Part shown: positions 1,243 to 9,234 of the stretch, in pieces
How the letters are laid out: the number at the start of each line of letters is the position of its first letter
How positions within the stretch are numbered: position 1 is the first letter of the stretch
Assembly (NCBI GenBank): GCA_029856365.1
Contig: JAHQWW010000008.1
Coordinates: 1-64,000 of the forward strand
DNA: 64,000 nucleotides
Reading direction: 5' to 3'
From: Candidatus Hodarchaeota archaeon
GTDB lineage: Archaea > Asgardarchaeota > Heimdallarchaeia > Hodarchaeales > Hodarchaeaceae
The notes under the pieces: model-generated
Database searches by the model: none
What the model was told of the DNA's origin: nothing
The model's input: only the letters and a program-made list of their open reading frames with translations
Position numbers and translations under genes: made by a program

Positions 1243-2718
1243 TTACGCTCTCTCACTAATTCCTGTTGTGTTCTCGGGTCTAGTACGCCTTTTAAACTCA
1301 TAAAACTTCTCTGATAATTCTTGTACTTGCTGAATAATCTCTTGAACGTTTAAAAACATAAATAGATAATCATTAATGAGAATTTTCCCGTTAGAAATCA
1401 CATATCGAATTTCATTACCATTTGCAGCCCAAATCAAATTTTCTACCACATTGTCTAAGCGTGTTGGGGTTAAATTAGGAGCAGAAAGATCAACAACTAT
1501 TATATCTGCTAGTTTCCCTGGTTCTAATGAACCCGTATTAAACCCTAAGATTTGAGCTGGAATTATAGTTATTCGTTCAAGAACATCCTGAGCGGTCATC
1601 AGAGAAGCATCTTGATGAAGAGCTTTTTGATATTGAGCTGCTACGCGAGCAGCGTTAATAATATTTTGATTATCGGCACTTCCAGATCCATCAGTCGAAA
1701 TTGCAAATTCAATCCCTCTTCTTTTGAATTCTTGTATGGGAGGCATACCTGAACCAAGAATAGTGTTTGCTAGAGGATTATGTACAACTTTAGTTTGAGT
1801 TTGGGCTAGAATCTGTAGATCATTGTGCGTAGTATGCACCTGATGAGCAATAAAAGTATTTTCATCGAAAAAGCTAATAGAATGTCCATATTCTACTGGT
1901 GTCATCCTGTATTTTTCTGTGAACCACCTTGTTGTGGCAGATTCTTCACTAGAATGAATATGAATTAAGGAATTGTGGTCTTGAGCCCATTTTTTTAGTA
2001 TTCTTAGAAGTTCTGGTCCATTTGAGAAAAATTGATCAGGTCCAGGAATAATCTTAATATCTACTGAATCTTTATACTTCTCATTTAATTTATCAAGTCT
2101 CTCTACAGCGATTATAGCTGGCTTATCTAGTATTCTTGGGTCATAATGTCGATCTTGTGACCCTACAGCGATCATGATTTTTGTTCCAGCCATTTGGTTT
2201 GCTTCAACTAGTTCATCTACGTGATATTTATTGAAATTGCAATGATGAACCAAAGCAGTAGTTATTCCATGCTGTAGGTCATCTATTCGGGCTTTAAGGT
2301 AAGTTATTAGATAAGGTGACTTGCCAAAATGCTTCGTCAAACTCTCTTCTTCAGAGTGTAAAAAACCTGTAAATAAATTCACTGCTGAATCGAGCCAGGT
2401 AGTTAGGGGAACATCTTTGGCAATTCCAATAATAGGTGATTCGTGATCGTGACCATGGGCTTTAACAAATCCTGGGAGTGCTACTCCATTTATTTGAGGA
2501 ACCTCCCTTTTTTTTATTTCACCTATTGTTGTCCCAATAATCTCAAGTTCTGATCCATACGTATCAATAATTTCCTGACCTCTTTGATCATCGAAGTGAC
2601 CAACTTCTTTAATATGCTGTCCTTCAGTGAGAATGAACCCATCTGTTATTCGAGTATCACGTCCTAATACATTGGAAAGAGGCAAGAGAAATTTAGTTCT
2701 AAGCAATTTATACTTCAT
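1243..2718 (-). CDS. amidohydrolase family protein (MTA/SAH- or guanine-deaminase-like)
   Basis: PGFVKAHGH (HxH), IHIHSSE, VHNPLAN, STDGSGS, GSLEPGKLADI motifs. Start moved to MKYKLL (2718). Confidence 0.85.
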   Translation of the reverse strand: MKYKLLRTKFLLPLSNVLGRDTRITDGFILTEGQHIKEVGHFDDQRGQEIIDTYGSELEIIGTTIGEIKKREVPQINGVALPGFVKAHGHDHESPIIGIAKDVPLTTWLDSAVNLFTGFLHSEEESLTKHFGKSPYLITYLKARIDDLQHGITTALVHHCNFNKYHVDELVEANQMAGTKIMIAVGSQDRHYDPRILDKPAIIAVERLDKLNEKYKDSVDIKIIPGPDQFFSNGPELLRILKKWAQDHNSLIHIHSSEESATTRWFTEKYRMTPVEYGHSISFFDENTFIAHQVHTTHNDLQILAQTQTKVVHNPLANTILGSGMPPIQEFKRRGIEFAISTDGSGSADNQNIINAARVAAQYQKALHQDASLMTAQDVLERITIIPAQILGFNTGSLEPGKLADIIVVDLSAPNLTPTRLDNVVENLIWAANGNEIRYVISNGKILINDYLFMFLNVQEIIQQVQELSEKFYEFKRRTRPENTTGISERA

Positions 2719-2802
2719 TTGTTCACAAACCTGAAACAAGGCTCGATTTATTAAGCGATGTATTTGTATTCTCTGACAATAAGAAAGGAAAAAATATTGA
2801 AA

Positions 2803-2821
2803 AAGTTTGAGCTCCAAACTT
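2803..2821. promoter_or_regulatory. perfect 7-bp inverted repeat in a divergent promoter (possible operator)
   Basis: AAGTTTG-agctc-CAAACTT between the divergent amidohydrolase and dihydropyrimidinase genes. Confidence 0.35.
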
Positions 2822-2883
2822 AGTAAACAAGTAGAAATCTTGAGATTACGAAGTTAATTAATTTTTCATTGGATGAATAAGAA

Positions 2884-4251
2884 TTGGATCTTATTATTAA
2901 GAATGGAACCCTTGTAGATAGCATTAGATGCTATCAGGCAAACTTAGCTATTGCAGAAGGAAAAATTAGGGCTATTTTCCTAGGTAATAAGAACTATAAA
3001 GCAGAAAAAGTTGTTGATGCTGAGAAAAAAATGGTTTTTCCTGGTTTAGTTGATTCTCATGTTCATTTTCAACTTCAAGATATGGGGAAAATCATCTCAA
3101 CTGACAACTTTGCTTCAGGAACAAAAGCTGCTGCCTGTGGAGGAGTGACGACTATAATTGATTTTGCTGATCAAATGCGAGGGGAGTCTCCTCTAAAAAG
3201 CTTTTATGAACGTAAAAAAGATGCAGATTCGCAGGTGGCTATCGACTATAGTCTACATGTCTCAAAGACTGACACCAAATTTCTAGATGAGATTCCGACT
3301 CTTATTTCCGAGGGAGTGACAAGCTTTAAATTTTTCACAACCTATAGCTGGCGAAATCTTGATCTTGATGATGCAGAATTATTAGTTTTGTTTCGTGAGG
3401 TTAAGAAATGTCGAGGAATGGTTATGGGCCATTGTGAAAATGATGACATGGTTATTCGCAACATAAATAGCCTTATTCAGGCAGGAAAAACTGATCCTAT
3501 TTTTCATGCCCATTCACGCCCTCATATTGCAGAGGAAGAAGCTATTCAACGAGTGCTACTTTTTACCAAAAAAACTGGTGTTAAGCTTCATCTAGCTCAT
3601 CTTACTACAAAAGAAGGAAGTGACCTATTATCCCAAGCTAAAAAACAGGGTTTGAATGTCACAGGGGAGACCTGTCCTCACTATTTACTTTTAAATGAGA
3701 GAGAGTACAAAGGTTCAGAAGGATATTTGAATCTGATGTCACCACCTCTTCGTCATGCCAAAGACCAACAAGCATTAATGAAACGAGTGCAAGATGGAAC
3801 AATTGATCAGATCATTACCGATCATTGTGAATTTTCACGTAAGAGTAAAGGAGATGGTAACTTCCCTTTTCATCAAGTTTTAAATGGAATTCCAGGAATC
3901 GAAACCTCCTTGCCCCTTATGCATGATTTTTTAATTAATAAGCAAAAATTAACTTACCCTCAACTAATATCTCTAATGTCAACTAAACCAGCTCAGATAT
4001 TTGGTCTTTATCCTCAAAAAGGGAGTTTGATGGTTGGAACAGATGCTGATCTTGTCATTTTTGATCCAAATGTTGAAAGAACAATCACTCCAGAAATACT
4101 TCATTATTCCATTGATTGGAACCCTTACAGTGGACTGAAGGTTGAAGGATGGCCCGTTATGACCATACTTCGCGGAAAAATTCTTTACGAAAAAGGAAAC
4201 TTTGTTGGGCCGCACAATAAAGGAAAATTTTTGAAATGTTCAATTAGATAG
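2884..4251 (+). CDS. hydA: dihydropyrimidinase/hydantoinase (cyclic amidohydrolase, HyuA-like)
   Basis: PGLVDSHVH, GTKAAACGGVTTIIDF, carbamylatable Lys in TSFKFF, HCEN, ETCPHYL, SPPLR, TDHC. Confidence 0.88.
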   Translation: MDLIIKNGTLVDSIRCYQANLAIAEGKIRAIFLGNKNYKAEKVVDAEKKMVFPGLVDSHVHFQLQDMGKIISTDNFASGTKAAACGGVTTIIDFADQMRGESPLKSFYERKKDADSQVAIDYSLHVSKTDTKFLDEIPTLISEGVTSFKFFTTYSWRNLDLDDAELLVLFREVKKCRGMVMGHCENDDMVIRNINSLIQAGKTDPIFHAHSRPHIAEEEAIQRVLLFTKKTGVKLHLAHLTTKEGSDLLSQAKKQGLNVTGETCPHYLLLNEREYKGSEGYLNLMSPPLRHAKDQQALMKRVQDGTIDQIITDHCEFSRKSKGDGNFPFHQVLNGIPGIETSLPLMHDFLINKQKLTYPQLISLMSTKPAQIFGLYPQKGSLMVGTDADLVIFDPNVERTITPEILHYSIDWNPYSGLKVEGWPVMTILRGKILYEKGNFVGPHNKGKFLKCSIR

Positions 4252-4395
4252 ATATCTGTCGCCAGTGTTAAGATCTTCTGATGTAATAATGGCCTGAATG
4301 GGATTTTAGTAGCCTAGAAATGCTTAATTTTATCAAAATAGAATCCTAGACTTGGTAAAAAATTAATGCTATTTCAATAAAAAAGGTATTTTGAG

Positions 4396-4557
4396 ATGAA
4401 ACATCCAAAACAATCACGAAATGACTTACGTACATGTCCAAATTGTAAAAAATCCTTTGCACTTTCTTATGCTAGAGCCTTCGGATGTAAAGGATGCTCA
4501 CAAAGTTATCTCACTTGCGGTTATGTGAAATGTCCTTTCTGTAGTCATGAATTTTGA
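4396..4557 (+). CDS. small Cys-rich zinc-finger protein (53 aa), not in the ORF track
   Basis: Own translation: MKHPKQSRNDLRTCPNCKKSFALSYARAFGCKGCSQSYLTCGYVKCPFCSHEF*. Three CxxC pairs plus an extra C and H. Confidence 0.75.
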   Translation: MKHPKQSRNDLRTCPNCKKSFALSYARAFGCKGCSQSYLTCGYVKCPFCSHEF

Positions 4558-4564
4558 AAATAAC

Positions 4565-5419
4565 TTAATCCAAATAAAGGGGGGAAATGATTGGTTCAGG
4601 ACGGTGCCACTCATAAATTACATTAGTAGAATGCTTCGTTTGAATCTGGTAATCTGGAAGAGCAGGATTAAATTCCTCAATCTTCAGTATAATATAATTG
4701 ATGTTATGATCTCCTAAGTTGTTCAATGCTACATCAATAGTAACCCAATCCATTTTGGGAGAATAAATCTCTCCCCAGGCATGTGCTTCAACCAATGTTC
4801 CTTGCTTCTGAATATAGTAACCGGTCAATCGTCTACTCGGGATTCCACGTTTTCGTGCTAATGTTATGAAAAGATCTGAAAATTCATCACAATCACCAAT
4901 TTCGGAGAGGTAAGCCTGATAAGCTCCTAATCTTTCTTCTTGAAATTCACAAACTTTAATTTTTGCTCTGATATATTGATAAGCCATTTGTACCCATAAA
5001 GAAAGATCATCTGTACCAAACCATTCATGATCAGACATATTAAAGATGGTCGATGACTTGATAGGCCAGTATTTAGAGCTTTCATTGTATTTTGATTTGA
5101 TAGTTGCAGGAATATCTGATATTTTTCCCCAATCATCTCCTAGGTTAATGAAAGAAGTTGTAGGAAAAATAGAGCTAATCCTATCCAAAGAAATTATCCC
5201 TTTAGTTTGAACTTTCTGCTGAAAAAGGAAAAAAGAATTGATTCCTTTTCTTTTTATTTTACACTGTGAAGGAAATTTATCAATACGCACAGATTGACGA
5301 TAATTAGGATAGTGAAAGAACTTCAAACGAATTGATGGTGAACCAGTCTTAGCCCGATATAACAGTTGCTCCTGATGATGGATTTTCCAACCTGAGATTT
5401 CATGAGACCCATCCATCAT
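4565..5419 (-). CDS. transglutaminase-like domain protein
   Basis: Catalytic triad pattern GDCDEFSDLF...GIPSR...HAWGE...WVTID. Confidence 0.85.
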   Translation of the reverse strand: MMDGSHEISGWKIHHQEQLLYRAKTGSPSIRLKFFHYPNYRQSVRIDKFPSQCKIKRKGINSFFLFQQKVQTKGIISLDRISSIFPTTSFINLGDDWGKISDIPATIKSKYNESSKYWPIKSSTIFNMSDHEWFGTDDLSLWVQMAYQYIRAKIKVCEFQEERLGAYQAYLSEIGDCDEFSDLFITLARKRGIPSRRLTGYYIQKQGTLVEAHAWGEIYSPKMDWVTIDVALNNLGDHNINYIILKIEEFNPALPDYQIQTKHSTNVIYEWHRPEPIISPLYLD

Positions 5420-5506: not shown

Positions 5507-5977
5507 TTGGAAGACGTAATTCAGCGGAAAAACTCCCAAGGGGTCTATATATTAGTTTTTGAAATAGTCCATTCTCTTTTAATTGATATAAGGAGATTCA
5601 AATGGCTGTTGAAACCAGGATTTTATCTTTATTTCGGATCTGCTCTAGGAAAAACCTCAACTTCTTTAGAGAAACGGTTAGCTCGTCATTTTAACAACCA
5701 AAAGAAAATTTTTTGGCATATTGATTATATAACTTCCCAATCAGATGTTAAAATGATTAATGCATATTATACCACGAAAACTGGAATAACTGAATGTTCA
5801 GCTCTCCAGGGATTTGAACAAAACTTCCAAAATACAGAAATTATTTTAAAATTCGGTTCATCTGATTGCAAGACGAAATGTGGAGGCCATTTGGTATTCC
5901 TTTCAAACAATCGGGCTGTTTTGATTGATCTTGCCAATTATTTCAATTTAAGGGGGTGGTTCTTGCACAAGGATTAG
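5507..5977 (+). CDS. GIY-YIG (Uri) superfamily endonuclease, DUF123-like
   Basis: GVYIL...YLYFGSA...RLARH...WHIDY...FGSSDC...CGGHL. Confidence 0.85.
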   Translation: MEDVIQRKNSQGVYILVFEIVHSLLIDIRRFKWLLKPGFYLYFGSALGKTSTSLEKRLARHFNNQKKIFWHIDYITSQSDVKMINAYYTTKTGITECSALQGFEQNFQNTEIILKFGSSDCKTKCGGHLVFLSNNRAVLIDLANYFNLRGWFLHKD

Positions 5978-6202: not shown

Positions 6203-7006
6203 TTGCCTTGGCCTTTTAGAAAAAAAAAGAAGAAGAATTTACCTGAACCTCCTTCTTTCTCTAAACAAGAAGATTCACCTTTTTCAGAACCTCCAAAAGA
6301 ATTTCTCCCCCCTCCTTCCCGAGAGATATCGATCCACGAAAGGCCACCAATCCATAAGGTCCCCCCAATCCACGAAGGACCTCCGATTTATGAAGGACCA
6401 CCAAGACAATCACCTCCGACAGATGTTTCCAAGCCTTCAGGCCTCCCGCCACCTCCACCTTTCCCAGGAAAAAGTCCCTCACAACCATCTCTCAGCTCTG
6501 AACAACCCAGTAAAACTCCACTTTTTGATGATGAGATTACAGATGAAATTCATGCTGAATTACGACAAAGAGCTTTTGGATCAAGCATGAGAAAAGTTCC
6601 TGAAAGAAAAGCTGTATCTATATCGACTGAAGAGCTCGCAAAACAACGACTTCGAGCTTCAAAACAAGAATATATTGAAGCAGGTAATAAGCACCTTGAA
6701 TTAAACTTTTTTGATAATGCTGCAATTAATTACGCATGTGCCGTTCTCTGTGATTTAATAGTAGAAGGTTGGCAATCAGCTCGCCAAACAATGTTGAAAT
6801 TAACTTCTAGAATACCCTCCGCGGTTGTGGAGAAGAGCTTTTTTGATAATGTCCGACTTCTACTTGAAGCAATCCGTACGAAGAATTCCACCTTTTTGAC
6901 CCGTGCTGAACAGGCCATACAAAAGAATATGAAACATCTCTACCCAGAAGATGCGGCCATGGTAGAAAAAGCGATAAAAACAGCCAGAACTCACTTTGGA
7001 TATTGA
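6203..7006 (+). CDS. proline-rich protein with polybasic N-terminus, WH2-like motif and helical SNAP/TPR-like C-terminal domain
   Basis: RKKKKK, about 100 aa Pro-rich region including GLPPPPPFPG, EIHAELRQRAFGSSMRKV, then a helical domain. GAGGT SD before the TTG start. Confidence 0.8.
   Translation: MPWPFRKKKKKNLPEPPSFSKQEDSPFSEPPKEFLPPPSREISIHERPPIHKVPPIHEGPPIYEGPPRQSPPTDVSKPSGLPPPPPFPGKSPSQPSLSSEQPSKTPLFDDEITDEIHAELRQRAFGSSMRKVPERKAVSISTEELAKQRLRASKQEYIEAGNKHLELNFFDNAAINYACAVLCDLIVEGWQSARQTMLKLTSRIPSAVVEKSFFDNVRLLLEAIRTKNSTFLTRAEQAIQKNMKHLYPEDAAMVEKAIKTARTHFGY
6332..6403 (+). repeat. 4 x 18-bp coding tandem repeat (IHERPP IHKVPP IHEGPP IYEGPP)
   Basis: atccacgaaaggccacca / atccataaggtcccccca / atccacgaaggacctccg / atttatgaaggaccacca. 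Confidence 0.85.
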
Positions 7007-7178: not shown

Positions 7179-8228
7179 TTATAAGCCTCCTATTGTTAAA
7201 GCCATGATGGCTTTTTGCACATGTAAGCGATTTTCTGCAACGTCATAAATGCATGATCTTGATCCTGAGGCGACCTCGTCAGTAACCTCATGCCCTCTAT
7301 CAATTGGCATAGGATGCGTGAAGATTGCATTGTCCGTTAACGCCATTTTCTTTGAATCACAAATCCAATCGGGGTATTTCAGAGCCTTCTCAATTTCTTG
7401 TTCCTTCAAAAATTCTCCGTACTGATAGGCTTGAGGACTCATCCAATGACGTGAATACACCACATGAGCTCCCTCGTAGCCTTTTGTAAGATGATTAGTT
7501 GTTTCAAAATGTGTATCGTTCTTATTGCAGTTCTCTTCTGTCCATTTCAGAATTTGAGAATCTAAATCAAACCCTTCAGGAGAAGCAACTGTAACATCCA
7601 TTCCATACCGGGAACCAATTAACATAGCCTCTTGAACAGAACACCAAGAACGAGCAAGAGCACCATGACCCCATGTAACAAGTAGCTTCTTCCCTTGTAA
7701 AGTTCGCCAATTAGGAGGATATTTGGTACCTTTACTGAACCATTCTGACCAACCCATGACATCTGCAAGTCCTTGACAGGGATGATATTTATCATGGGCC
7801 ATTGAAATGATAGGAATTGTTGCCCACTTAGTATATTCTCGAAGGAGATGATCTCCTTGGCCATATGCTCCAACTTTATCCTCAAGAATTCTAATTCCAA
7901 GACCATGGGCATAACGAGACATTACCTGGGCAGCATCTTCTACTGTTTCCCCCGCGGTCTTCTCAGTTTTAAGACGCATAGCTTTTGGTTCAAGAAATTG
8001 GGCATGTCCTCCAAGTTCTGTAGCAGCAACTTCAAAACTCTGTCTTGTTCGCACACTTGGATTATAAAAAAACATAAAGAATGTTTTATGTTGTAATAAA
8101 CTAGTGTAGTGAGGGGAAAACCGTTCCCGCTTCATTCTCCCTGCTAAATCTAGTACTAAGTCTAATTCATGTTTTTCCCAATCTTGGGTACAAATTAAAT
8201 CTCTTCCATATAAATCTGAAAATTCCAT
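7179..8228 (-). CDS. carbamoyltransferase, OTCase/AOTCase family, atypical
   Basis: SVRTRQSFE, HPCQGLAD, HPMPIDRG, AENRLH. Start moved to MEFSDL (8228) behind an AGGAGG SD. Confidence 0.85.
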   Translation of the reverse strand: MEFSDLYGRDLICTQDWEKHELDLVLDLAGRMKRERFSPHYTSLLQHKTFFMFFYNPSVRTRQSFEVAATELGGHAQFLEPKAMRLKTEKTAGETVEDAAQVMSRYAHGLGIRILEDKVGAYGQGDHLLREYTKWATIPIISMAHDKYHPCQGLADVMGWSEWFSKGTKYPPNWRTLQGKKLLVTWGHGALARSWCSVQEAMLIGSRYGMDVTVASPEGFDLDSQILKWTEENCNKNDTHFETTNHLTKGYEGAHVVYSRHWMSPQAYQYGEFLKEQEIEKALKYPDWICDSKKMALTDNAIFTHPMPIDRGHEVTDEVASGSRSCIYDVAENRLHVQKAIMALTIGGL

Positions 8229-8247
8229 CTTAAGTAGCCTCCTATTC

Positions 8248-9234
8248 TTACGGAATAATAGTGGTTCCTGCTTCTCCATCTAGAGCTGCTGCTGCAAGTT
8301 CAGGGGTGGTTATAACAACTTTTTTCCCTCCATCCTTTAAGAATCGAATTGCAGCTTTTAATTTAGGCCCCATCGATCCTTTTAACTTCTCTCCAAACGC
8401 TCCTTCTGCTAAATACTTTTCAACCTCTACCACAGTCATTCTGTCAATACCAGTCTGCTGTGATGTCTTATAATTCAAATAAACTTTATCTGTATCAGTC
8501 AATATAGCAAATGCTTCCGCTTTCGTATCAATTGCTAATCTCTCTCCAGCTAAATCTTTATCAATAACAGCTTCAACACCTGTAACTGTTCCATCGGGAT
8601 TTTTAATAACAGGGATACCTCCTCCGCCACTGGCAACTAAAATAAAACCAGCTTCTAATAAATCATTAACCTGATCCTTTTCATAAATTTCAATTGGATC
8701 TGGTGATGGGACAACTCGACGATACCCCCTTCCAGCATCTTCAATGATAGTAAAATCAGGATGTTCTTCTTTAATCCGATCAGCCTGTTCACTTGTGTAA
8801 AAAGGCCCGACAGGTTTTGTTGGATTTTGAAACGCTGGATCACCTTGGGACACAACTACTTGTGTAATAATCGTTGCAACTTTGATCTTTTTACTAGGAT
8901 CCAACCGACTAGGAGGACCCTCAGTCAGTAATAAATTTCCAAGGATATTCTGAATGAGATACCCGATCTGTCCTTGGGTCATGGCCACCGCGATATCGTC
9001 AGGCATAACAGGGCGATTATATGGCGAATGAGAACCAGCTTCCATTTGTAACATAAGGTTCCCCACCTGAGGGCCATTACCATGAGTTATCACAATTCTC
9101 CATTTTGGAATGACCTTCATTATTTGTCTTGTGGTTTCTGTGACATTTTCGATCTGTTCCTCTATTGTCCCTCTCTGTTTCCCCTTAATCATGGCATTTC
9201 CACCAAGTGCAATGACAACTAGTGGCTTAAGCAT
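8248..9234 (-). CDS. arcC: carbamate kinase
   Basis: VIALGGNA, ITHGNGPQVG, PTKPVGPFY, YRRVVPSP, GGGGIPV, EAVIDKD, GSMGPK. Confidence 0.95.
   Translation of the reverse strand: MLKPLVVIALGGNAMIKGKQRGTIEEQIENVTETTRQIMKVIPKWRIVITHGNGPQVGNLMLQMEAGSHSPYNRPVMPDDIAVAMTQGQIGYLIQNILGNLLLTEGPPSRLDPSKKIKVATIITQVVVSQGDPAFQNPTKPVGPFYTSEQADRIKEEHPDFTIIEDAGRGYRRVVPSPDPIEIYEKDQVNDLLEAGFILVASGGGGIPVIKNPDGTVTGVEAVIDKDLAGERLAIDTKAEAFAILTDTDKVYLNYKTSQQTGIDRMTVVEVEKYLAEGAFGEKLKGSMGPKLKAAIRFLKDGGKKVVITTPELAAAALDGEAGTTIIP

What the first reader, a model, noticed from the sequence alone, without database searches (positions are those of the whole stretch)
6203..6601. Polybasic - polyproline - WH2-like architecture: candidate archaeal WASP/VASP-like actin regulator
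Seen: N-terminal WPFRKKKKK; about 100 aa of Pro-rich disordered sequence with FLPPP and GLPPPPPFPG; then an amphipathic helix followed by an LKKV-type motif (DEIHAELRQRAFGSSMRKV). Known: WH2 motifs are an amphipathic helix plus L-K/R-K/R-V/T; the spacing here equals the recalled Cordon-bleu type (LMEAIHSSGGREKLRKV). Eukaryotic nucleation/elongation factors place WH2 after profilin-binding polyproline and a lipid-binding basic patch. Asgard archaea encode actin and profilin, and polyproline binding has been reported for a Heimdallarchaeal profilin. Inference: a membrane-associated factor that hands profilin-actin to filaments, a missing upstream component of the Asgard actin system. The WH2 match is short and made by eye.
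Basis: partly seen in the sequence, partly recalled or inferred. Interest (0 to 1): 0.82.

Follow-up and report, generated by a model that had tools for sequence, protein, structure and literature searches.

The report
Asgard proline-arm protein with SNAP-like domain
This gene encodes an unnamed protein found only in Asgard archaea: a floppy basic, proline-rich arm, a short conserved helix that resembles an actin-binding WH2 motif, and a folded SNAP-like adaptor domain; actin binding is plausible but untested.

Summary
Positions 6203-6601 are the first 133 codons of a real 267-codon gene (6203-7006, + strand). They encode a polybasic start, a 31% proline disordered arm, and an amphipathic helix followed by MRKV.

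The gene belongs to an unannotated, Asgard-only family. It was found in 88 of 250 sampled genomes, and Hodarchaeales carry two paralogues.

The ancient conserved core is the helix motif plus a C-terminal six-helix SNAP/TPR-like domain. The basic and proline arm is lineage-specific.

Family-wide, the motif reads hydrophobic-hydrophobic-x-E-L ... G ... L-x-K-(V/A/T). Some lineages carry near-canonical WH2 strings such as AILSGGGLKRV and NQLKKV. AlphaFold does not dock the helix onto its own domain. The genome has actin and profilin.

Against this, the curated WH2 model never matches. The motif is always tethered to the SNAP-like domain. No neighbouring gene is actin-related.

Verdict: a new modular adaptor. 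WH2-like actin binding is a fair candidate at about 25% and is unproven.

The scan noted this family before in other genomes, without follow-up.

The parts
6203..7006 (+). Whole gene: 267 codons plus stop, TTG start
   Evidence: ORF list and translation. There are 54 homologues at E<=1e-3 that begin with the same MPxPF...K5 N-terminus, which supports the start codon. GAGAGG lies 7-12 nt upstream of the TTG (reading it as a ribosome-binding site is inference).
6203..6238 (+). Polybasic N-terminus, residues 1-12 ((M)PWPF-RKKKKK-N)
   Evidence: K8 and K9 are invariant; P2, F5 and K7 are >=90% conserved in 32 sequences. A basic cluster is also present in most distant members. It is absent from the Cys-rich/TPR-headed forms. 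Binding to lipid or RNA is inference.
6239..6259 (+). LPxPPS(F) motif, residues 13-19
   Evidence: P14, P16 and P17 are invariant and L13 is >=90% conserved. The motif recurs directly after the basic cluster in distant members, e.g. LPEPPS, LPPPP, LPQPPS.
6236..6514 (+). Disordered proline-rich arm, residues 12-104 (31% Pro), including three to four PPI(H/Y)(E/K)(G/V) repeats at residues 47-68 (6341-6406)
   Evidence: pLDDT is 44-64 with no secondary structure. Length and repeat number vary by insertions and deletions among homologues, and a GPPR unit recurs. TRF finds no tandem repeat at DNA level.
6443..6469 (+). LPPPPPFPG, residues 81-89, the only run of five prolines
   Evidence: L81 and P85 are >=90% conserved. 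The second paralogue has (R)PPFPE at the matching place. It is one of only 4 ORFs in the genome with five or more consecutive prolines.
6521..6601 (+). Conserved helix-Gly-L-x-K motif, residues 107-133 (LFDDEITDEIHAELRQRAFGSSMRKVP): the 'WH2-like' element
   Evidence: The helix spans 110-122 at pLDDT 64-74 and is not confidently docked on the domain in either model. E119 is invariant in 56/56. Positions 116, 120, 125 and 129 are always hydrophobic, K131 is present in 42/56, and P133 in 40/56. The helix is amphipathic.
6626..7003 (+). C-terminal six-helix SNAP/TPR-like domain, residues 142-267
   Evidence: pLDDT is 92-98. The best structural matches are the C-terminal halves of Sec17/alpha-SNAP (Z 13.2, rmsd 3.0, 114 residues) and gamma-SNAP (Z 11.8), then TRC35/Get4; MIT domains match the first three helices at Z 7-8.7. 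The nearest ESM Atlas structure cluster and the nearest language-model clusters carry Pfam SNAP. hhalign links the family profile at 83% probability (E 9e-6) to an Asgard protein that passes the Pfam SNAP cut-off.
5507..5977 (+). Upstream DUF123 gene, a conserved neighbour of this paralogue only
   Evidence: Pfam DUF123 at 74.6 bits. The same gene precedes the orthologue in L003, L004, L005 and in 8 of 12 same-genus loci. No functional link is shown.

Best explanation
The gene encodes a modular adaptor restricted to Asgard archaea. Its ancient working unit is a short exposed helix-Gly-L-x-K motif held about 20 residues in front of a folded six-helix SNAP/TPR-like domain. I think these two most likely act together as one two-part binding site for a still unidentified partner. 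SNAP, TPR and MIT-type domains typically grip helices or extended peptides. In Hodarchaeales and some other lineages, a floppy N-terminal arm was added. Its polybasic patch would place the protein on an acidic surface, either membrane lipid or RNA. Its proline motifs (LPxPPS, PPFP, GPPR repeats) would recruit proline-binding proteins. Shown: the parts, their conservation, the fold, and the distribution. Inferred: every binding step and the partner.
For: The gene and family are real: 54 homologues, then 40 clusters at 50% identity among 1.84 billion proteins. The family was found in 88 of 250 sampled Asgard genomes and 26 of 63 genera. The motif and domain co-occur at nearly fixed spacing in every member. 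The N-terminal part differs between lineages: a basic/proline arm in some, a Cys-rich plus TPR-like head in others. The domain is modelled with high confidence (pLDDT 92-98) and the motif helix is not docked (pLDDT 64-74) in two models with different alignments. SNAP likeness is supported by structure, by Atlas structure and language-model neighbours, and by a profile-profile link to an Asgard Pfam-SNAP protein. The invariant E119 next to the hydrophobic face points to a specific polar contact.
Against: No partner is identified. Fold matches for helical repeats at Z about 13 can reflect only a common arrangement (note). Pfam SNAP does not match this protein directly. That the motif and domain bind one partner together is inferred only from their constant linkage. 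Gene neighbourhoods give no coherent functional hint.
Confidence: 0.4

Rival explanations
1. [quoted passage not shown] The upstream proline run brings in profilin-actin and the polybasic patch holds the protein at the membrane. That would make it an archaeal WASP/VASP-like actin assembly factor.
For: The family consensus follows the WH2 order: hydrophobic pair, hydrophobic at +4, Gly, then L-basic-basic-V/A/T. Some lineages carry strings with exact WH2 spacing (AELKAAILSGGGLKRVE, ELKASILGGVKLRKAE) or a canonical LKKV after the helix (FLEELLLKVPNAKNQLKKVTK). Others have LLSELEGGGFTKKLTKV and MLKEVKEMGFTEGLKKL. The motif is disordered and undocked in the models, as WH2 motifs are. The genome has actin and profilin. 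WH2-like LKKT-type motifs that contact actin are already solved in Asgard gelsolins, including variants LVDV and LKHV (PMC9433394). A Heimdall profilin binds a VASP proline peptide weakly, with Kd 0.3-3.3 mM (PMC8410842).
Against: Pfam WH2 matches none of 56 segments or 7 full-length members, even at E<=10. In a whole-genome search it reports three unrelated places and not this gene. A profile of the motif finds no WH2 protein among PDB sequences; instead it hits the generic helix-Gly-hydrophobic turn of PPR repeats. In this protein the position equivalent to the key WH2 Ile is Arg123 (sequence). The loose pattern is common, with 110 hits in the genome. An invariant Glu in the helix is not a WH2 feature (my knowledge). 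The motif never occurs apart from the SNAP-like domain. In the Cys-rich/TPR-headed forms it looks by eye like the end of a longer helical region, which was not modelled. No actin, profilin or gelsolin gene lies beside any homologue examined. The GPPR repeats have only two prolines each.
Confidence: 0.25
2. The helix is not a docking motif for another protein. It would be the last remnant of the N-terminal TPR sheet of a full SNAP-like solenoid. It either packs on its own C-terminal domain as a cap or autoinhibitory lid, or simply serves as a structured linker.
For: In other Asgard families the same motif follows a Cys-rich plus TPR-like helical head and seems continuous with its last helix. 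The spacing to the domain is nearly constant. The ELxxxGF pattern is a generic helix C-cap shared with PPR and UBA helices. MIT-like three-helix units, which bind amphipathic helices, match the first half of the domain.
Against: Two AlphaFold2 runs give the helix only pLDDT 64-74 and leave about 20 unstructured residues before the domain. No structural match to SNAP or Get4 extends over residues 110-122. The L-x-K-(V/A/T)-P stretch after the helix is conserved although it is modelled as coil.
Confidence: 0.2
3. The protein works in ribosome biogenesis or RNA handling. The polybasic N-terminus would bind RNA and the TPR-like domain would bind a biogenesis factor.
For: The second, apparently older paralogue lies next to an RsmB/F (Nop2-like) methyltransferase gene. 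In the six loci with called genes it is divergently transcribed from an RsmB/F-Nip7 (UPF0113) operon that often includes CYTH. The adjacency is seen in this genome (L029) and in same-genus loci L045 and L048-L050. It is also seen in an Odin-labelled genome, three further metagenome records (one of them same-genus by its actin) and several other families. One locus sits among ribosomal protein genes.
Against: Divergent neighbours need not be co-functional. The window's own paralogue has left that neighbourhood. No RNA-binding domain was found. Several lineages lack the basic N-terminus.
Confidence: 0.08

Closest known systems
WH2 domain (Pfam PF02205; WASP/WAVE/WIP/MIM, thymosin beta-4, Spire, Cordon-bleu)
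   Same: A short, disordered element: an amphipathic helix with conserved hydrophobics, a Gly, then an L-basic-basic-V/T-like stretch, often downstream of proline-rich sequence. Some family members match the canonical spacing exactly.
   Different: The curated model does not match. The helix carries an invariant Glu. In this protein Arg sits where WH2 has its key Ile. Spacing between Gly and Leu varies by 0-3 residues across the family. The motif is never found apart from one particular folded domain. Actin binding is untested.
Ena/VASP (EVH1, proline-rich region, EVH2 with G-actin site, F-actin site and coiled coil) and WASP/N-WASP (WH1, basic region, GBD, proline-rich region, WH2, C, A)
   Same: The order basic patch, proline-rich region, WH2-like helix, then a helical C-terminal part echoes the basic/proline/WH2 order of N-WASP and the proline/G-actin-site/helical-end order of VASP (my knowledge of those families).
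   Different: Pfam finds no EVH1/WH1, GBD, central/acidic Arp2/3-binding region or tetramerising coiled coil. The C-terminal part is a SNAP/TPR-like domain instead. The basic/proline arm is missing from many family members.
alpha/gamma-SNAP, Sec17 (Pfam PF14938)
   Same: The C-terminal six helices superpose on the C-terminal half of Sec17 and gamma-SNAP (Z 13.2 and 11.8). Atlas neighbours carry Pfam SNAP. A profile-profile link exists to an Asgard protein that passes the SNAP cut-off.
   Different: Only about half a SNAP is present in this protein, with no N-terminal TPR sheet. Pfam SNAP does not match it directly. No link to SNARE-like proteins or to an NSF/Cdc48-type ATPase was tested.
WH2-like LKKT-type linker motifs of Asgard two-domain gelsolins (PMC9433394)
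   Same: These are Asgard proteins with an L-x-x-V/T tetrapeptide (LRRV, LKHV, LVDV) that contacts actin in crystal structures. This shows that such relaxed motifs can be functional in this phylum.
   Different: There the motif is the linker after a gelsolin domain, which supplies the main actin contact. Here there is no gelsolin domain.
MIT domains (Vps4, spartin, calpain-7, LIP5)
   Same: Helices 1-3 (residues about 142-210) superpose on MIT domains at Z 7-8.7, including the archaeal Vps4 MIT domain bound to an ESCRT-III peptide. MIT domains bind amphipathic or proline-rich peptides.
   Different: The scores are in the range common to any three-helix TPR-like unit. The whole domain fits SNAP better. 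There is no sequence match.

Membership tests
WH2 domain (PF02205) | Match to the curated family model at or above 23.1 bits | tested here: not met
   No hit for P0001 at E<=0.1. No hit at E<=10 for 31 C-terminal halves, 56 motif segments or 7 further full-length members. In the whole-genome search the model reports three other places (19.5, 12.1 and 12.0 bits) and not this gene. HMMER filters can drop weak hits to so short a model.
WH2 domain (PF02205) | Two- to three-turn amphipathic helix with conserved hydrophobic residues | tested here: met
   Helix 110-122. Moment 0.52, in the top 3.7% of shuffles. Positions 116 and 120 are hydrophobic in 56/56, and 117 is L/F/I/V/M/Y in 24 of 25 distant members.
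WH2 domain (PF02205) | LKKV/LKKT-type tetrapeptide a few residues after the helix | tested here: inconclusive
   L/M/I at 129 in 56/56, K at 131 in 42/56, A/V/T at 132 in most, and position 130 variable. Other lineages have canonical LKKV, LKRV or LRKA. The second paralogue has L-x-x-V-P without basic residues.
WH2 domain (PF02205) | Unstructured on its own, not part of a fold | tested here: met
   pLDDT is 64-74 for the helix and 62-68 for the following linker in two AlphaFold2 runs. No structural match covers it.
WH2 domain (PF02205) | Binds G-actin in the cleft between subdomains 1 and 3 | not testable with these tools
No other route was tried.
Ena/VASP and WASP families | EVH1/WH1 domain, GBD, central-acidic Arp2/3-binding region or tetramerising coiled coil | tested here: not met
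   No Pfam family at E<=0.1 on the whole protein. The C-terminal part folds as a six-helix TPR-like domain, not a coiled coil.
SNAP (PF14938) | Match to the curated family model | tested here: not met
   No SNAP hit for P0001 or 31 homologues at E<=10. Indirect link only: the family profile hits an Asgard ORF (L069) at E 2.1e-5. That ORF passes Pfam SNAP at 25.8 bits. hhalign gives 83% probability, E 9e-6.
SNAP (PF14938) | SNAP fold: N-terminal TPR-like sheet of nine helices plus C-terminal helical bundle | tested here: inconclusive
   Only the C-terminal half is present and matches (Sec17 172-286, Z 13.2, rmsd 3.0, 114 residues; gamma-SNAP Z 11.8). In this protein the N-terminal sheet is replaced by a disordered arm. 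Z near 13 is borderline for helical repeats, per the tool's note.
MIT domain (PF04212) | Three-helix bundle that binds ESCRT-III MIM peptides | tested here: inconclusive
   Residues 142-210 match several MIT structures at Z 6.8-8.7. There is no sequence match, and peptide binding was not tested.

The most novel reading that the evidence does not exclude
The helix-Gly-L-x-K-V element is a genuine, divergent WH2-type G-actin-binding motif conserved across several Asgard classes. It is permanently coupled to a SNAP-like trafficking-type adaptor domain. In Hodarchaeales it is extended by a profilin-recruiting polyproline arm and a lipid-binding polybasic patch. That would make it the first archaeal WASP/VASP-like actin assembly factor, and one that physically links actin to a membrane-traffic adaptor fold.
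Probability: 0.2. Interest if true: 0.9.

Novelty: new variant of a known kind. Interest (0 to 1): 0.55.

Why it matters
Profilins and gelsolin/cofilin-type proteins are the Asgard actin regulators named in the papers I read (PMC9433394, PMC8410842, PMC12050087). To my knowledge no nucleation or elongation factor has been shown for them. How their filaments are started and aimed at membranes is open. This family offers a concrete peptide of about 30 residues that can be tested against Asgard actin. Independently of actin, it adds an Asgard-only protein with a SNAP-like domain to the list of candidate eukaryote-type trafficking parts. If the motif does not bind actin, the family is still a clean case of a conserved short docking motif tethered to a peptide-binding fold in archaea. 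Finding its partner would say what that SNAP-like domain does before SNAREs and NSF existed in their modern form.

Tried and rejected
- **Complex prediction.** The job paired actin (alignment A4) with the motif segment (alignment A3). It was returned NOT FOLDED because the actin chain looks eukaryotic, and it was counted. This is no evidence either way, and I tried no other route.
- **Pfam on the whole protein, halves and segments.** No significant family appeared. The weak UBA, GET4 and PPR-type hits reflect a generic helix-Gly-hydrophobic turn.
- **PDB sequence search with domain and motif profiles.** Nothing meaningful came up.
- **Foldseek against PDB.** No match at E<=0.001 for either model. 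The SNAP likeness rests on VIA-align, the Atlas and hhalign.
- **WH2 model on the records holding the most WH2-like members.** Those records are not held, so the search could not run.
- **Best WH2-model hit in the genome** (C190, 19.5 bits). It lies in a 733-residue coiled-coil protein and looks spurious.
- **Tandem-repeat search.** It found no DNA-level repeat under the PPIHEG repeats.
- **Considered by eye and rejected on spacing:**
  - MIM1 motif. The Leu-Arg-Leu spacing does not fit.
  - RPEL motif. There is no Arg-Pro before the invariant Glu-Leu.
  - Metal site at C179/C183. These positions are small residues (A/S/G/T) in distant members.
I could not check the recalled Cordon-bleu sequence.

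Full report
**Observation.** The region 6203-6601 is the 5' half of one ORF, 6203..7006 on the + strand (267 codons, TTG start). All quoted strings are present.
- Residues 1-11 are (M)PWPF-RKKKKK.
- Residues 12-104 are 31% proline. They contain FLPPP, three to four PPI(H/Y)(E/K)(G/V) units and GLPPPPPFPG.
- Residues 114-132 read DEIHAELRQRAFGSSMRKV.

AlphaFold2 gives no structure for residues 1-105 and predicts a helix at 110-122. That helix is amphipathic, with moment 0.52 in the top 3.7% of shuffles.

Taken alone the 'WH2' pattern is weak evidence. [LM][KR][KR][VT] occurs 286 times and a loose helix-plus-LKKV pattern 110 times in this genome's ORFs. Only 4 ORFs have five or more consecutive prolines, and the combination of both features occurs only here.

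**The gene is real and belongs to an unnamed family.**
- A word-indexed search found 54 homologues. All named ones are hypothetical proteins of Heimdall-, Hod- or Promethearchaeota-labelled genomes.
- A profile search of 1.84 billion representatives found 40 clusters.
- In 250 genomes sampled across the phylum, 88 have a match, covering 26 of 63 genera. That includes all 16 other genomes of the window's genus, most with two copies, and 51 of 59 genomes of one large family in another class. None of the sampled sister families of the same class had a match.
- The window's genome has a second copy, cut off by the end of contig C82.
- No Pfam, NCBI-style name or paper describing the family was found.

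**Anatomy and conservation**. Conservation is bimodal.
- *The arm.* The proline-rich arm is full of insertions and deletions. It keeps three islands: the basic cluster, LPxPPS directly after it (P14, P16, P17 invariant), and LPPPPPF, which is PPFPE in the other paralogue.
- *The motif.* E119 is invariant in 56 of 56 sequences. Positions 116, 120, 125 and 129 are always hydrophobic. K131 is kept in 42 of 56, position 132 is A/V/T in most, and P133 is kept in 40 of 56.
- *The domain.* The C-terminal 125 residues are the best conserved part.
- *Other lineages.* They have no basic/proline arm at all. A Cys-rich segment and further TPR-like helices precede the same motif and domain.

So the universal core is motif plus domain, about 20 residues apart. 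The polybasic-polyproline arm is a lineage-specific addition.

**Is the motif a WH2?**

For:
- The family consensus (hydrophobic pair, x, E, L, three to six residues, G, hydrophobic, zero to three residues, L, x, K, V/A/T) follows the WH2 order.
- Several lineages are closer to textbook WH2 than the window's protein:
  - AELKAAILSGGGLKRVE and ELKASILGGVKLRKAE have the canonical I-x-x-G-x-x-L-K-K-V spacing.
  - FLEELLLKVPNAKNQLKKVTK has a canonical LKKV.
  - LLSELEGGGFTKKLTKV and MLKEVKEMGFTEGLKKL.
- Two AlphaFold2 runs with different alignments leave the helix undocked, at pLDDT 64-74.
- The genome encodes actin (441.8 bits) and a profilin (26.4 bits).
- Relaxed L-x-x-V/T motifs contact actin in solved Asgard gelsolin complexes (PMC9433394).
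- A Heimdall profilin binds a VASP proline peptide weakly (PMC8410842).

Against:
- The curated WH2 model never matches. That covers the whole protein, 31 halves, 56 segments and 7 more full-length members.
- In the whole genome it reports three unrelated places instead of this gene.
- A profile of the motif finds no WH2 protein in the PDB. It finds the generic helix-Gly-hydrophobic turn of PPR repeats.
- In this protein Arg123 sits where WH2 has its key Ile.
- The invariant Glu is not a WH2 trait (my knowledge).
- The motif is never separated from the SNAP-like domain.
- No homologue examined lies beside an actin-related gene.

The decisive in-silico test was not possible.

**The C-terminal domain.**
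- Residues 142-263 form six helices at pLDDT 92-98.
- An exhaustive structural comparison ranks the C-terminal halves of Sec17/alpha-SNAP (Z 13.2, rmsd 3.0 over 114 residues) and gamma-SNAP (Z 11.8) first. TRC35/Get4 follow. MIT domains fit the first three helices at Z 7-8.7.
- The tool warns that such values are borderline for helical repeats.
- Independent leads agree. The nearest ESM Atlas structure cluster and the nearest language-model clusters carry Pfam SNAP.
- The family profile also hits an Asgard ORF (L069) that itself passes the Pfam SNAP cut-off. hhalign gives 83% probability, E 9e-6.
- I read it as a distant SNAP/TPR-clan domain corresponding to half a SNAP.

**Gene context.**
- The window's paralogue always follows a DUF123 gene. 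It lies inside a conserved block of amidohydrolases, a transglutaminase-like gene, a carbamoyltransferase and a carbamate-kinase-like gene.
- The other paralogue lies next to an RsmB/F (Nop2-like) methyltransferase gene; in the loci with called genes it is divergently transcribed from a CYTH-RsmB/F-Nip7 operon. That adjacency recurs in an Odin-labelled genome, three further metagenome records (one of them same-genus by its actin) and other families. In the window's genus an Arf-like GTPase gene converges on it.
- This looks like the ancestral location. It gives a weak hint towards ribosome biogenesis and none towards actin.

**Most likely mechanism.**
- *Best reading (0.4).* A modular adaptor in which the exposed motif and the SNAP-like domain form one two-part binding unit for an unidentified partner. 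The basic patch and proline motifs add localisation and recruitment in some lineages.
- *WH2-type actin binding (0.25).* This is the best named alternative.
- *Structural or autoinhibitory helix (0.2).*
- *RNA or ribosome role (0.08).*

All binding steps are inferred.

**Known relatives and novelty.** By the tests above the protein is not a member of the WH2, WASP or VASP families. It may still work like a WH2. The domain is a new, distant branch of a known fold class. The combination of parts is new. The scan noted this same family in three other genomes without follow-up (e1-5454947, e1-5541972, e1-5541980). The scan also holds many other 'polyproline plus WH2-like' notes on a different Asgard family, so the general idea is not unique to this locus.

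Noticed in passing
G000 contig C82:19529-19855 (locus L029:1303-1629, + strand): A second paralogue of the family in the same genome, cut off by the contig end after 109 residues (MSPPNQSTKKK..LPQPPS..RPPFPE..ILNELREGEFGSFLQQVPE). It is divergent from a CYTH gene and an RsmB/F methyltransferase gene.
   Followed up: partly
Loci L030, L032, L033, L034, L045, L048-L050, L052, L061, L062, L064: The family's apparently ancestral copy is repeatedly found next to an RsmB/F (Nop2-like) gene. In the loci with called genes this is a CYTH-RsmB/F-Nip7 (UPF0113) operon transcribed divergently. The pattern holds across distant Asgard lineages. In the window's genus an Arf-like small GTPase gene converges on it 8 bp away.
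   Followed up: partly
G000 contig C9:25137-25805 (+ strand, outside the window): An ORF of about 217 residues with a helical N-terminal part, a run of nine prolines followed by TTLTKKL, and a C-terminal helix (SLKMELMKELKKKF). It may belong to the pan-Asgard 'coiled coil, polyproline, end helix' family that other reports of this scan describe. It is a better polyproline candidate for profilin than the gene studied here.
   Followed up: no
L069:1216-2475 (+), genome G060 contig C75: An Asgard 420-residue protein whose N-terminal part passes the Pfam SNAP cut-off (25.8 bits). Its C-terminal half looks Ig-like or DUF11-like. It is the bridge between this family and SNAP.
   Followed up: partly
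L070:1523-2938 (-), L071:1246-2403 (-), L052, L061: Long forms of the family in another Asgard class. A four-Cys segment and extra TPR-like helices replace the basic/proline arm, and the motif reads AELKA(A/S)IL(S/G)GxxL(K/R)(K/R)(V/A), the closest to canonical WH2 spacing seen. In L070 and L071 they abut the RsmB/F-like gene.
   Followed up: partly
window 1243-5419 and 7179-9234: The gene sits inside a conserved block: two amidohydrolases, a transglutaminase-like gene, an atypical aspartate/ornithine carbamoyltransferase-family gene and an amino-acid (carbamate) kinase-family gene. Another reader of the scan noted the block as a possible ring-catabolism set (e1-5552911).
   Followed up: no
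G000 contig C190:1308-3509 (L065:400-2601): The best hit of the Pfam WH2 model in this genome (19.5 bits, below the cut-off) falls in a 733-residue protein with a long coiled coil. It looks like a chance match to a basic helix.
   Followed up: partly
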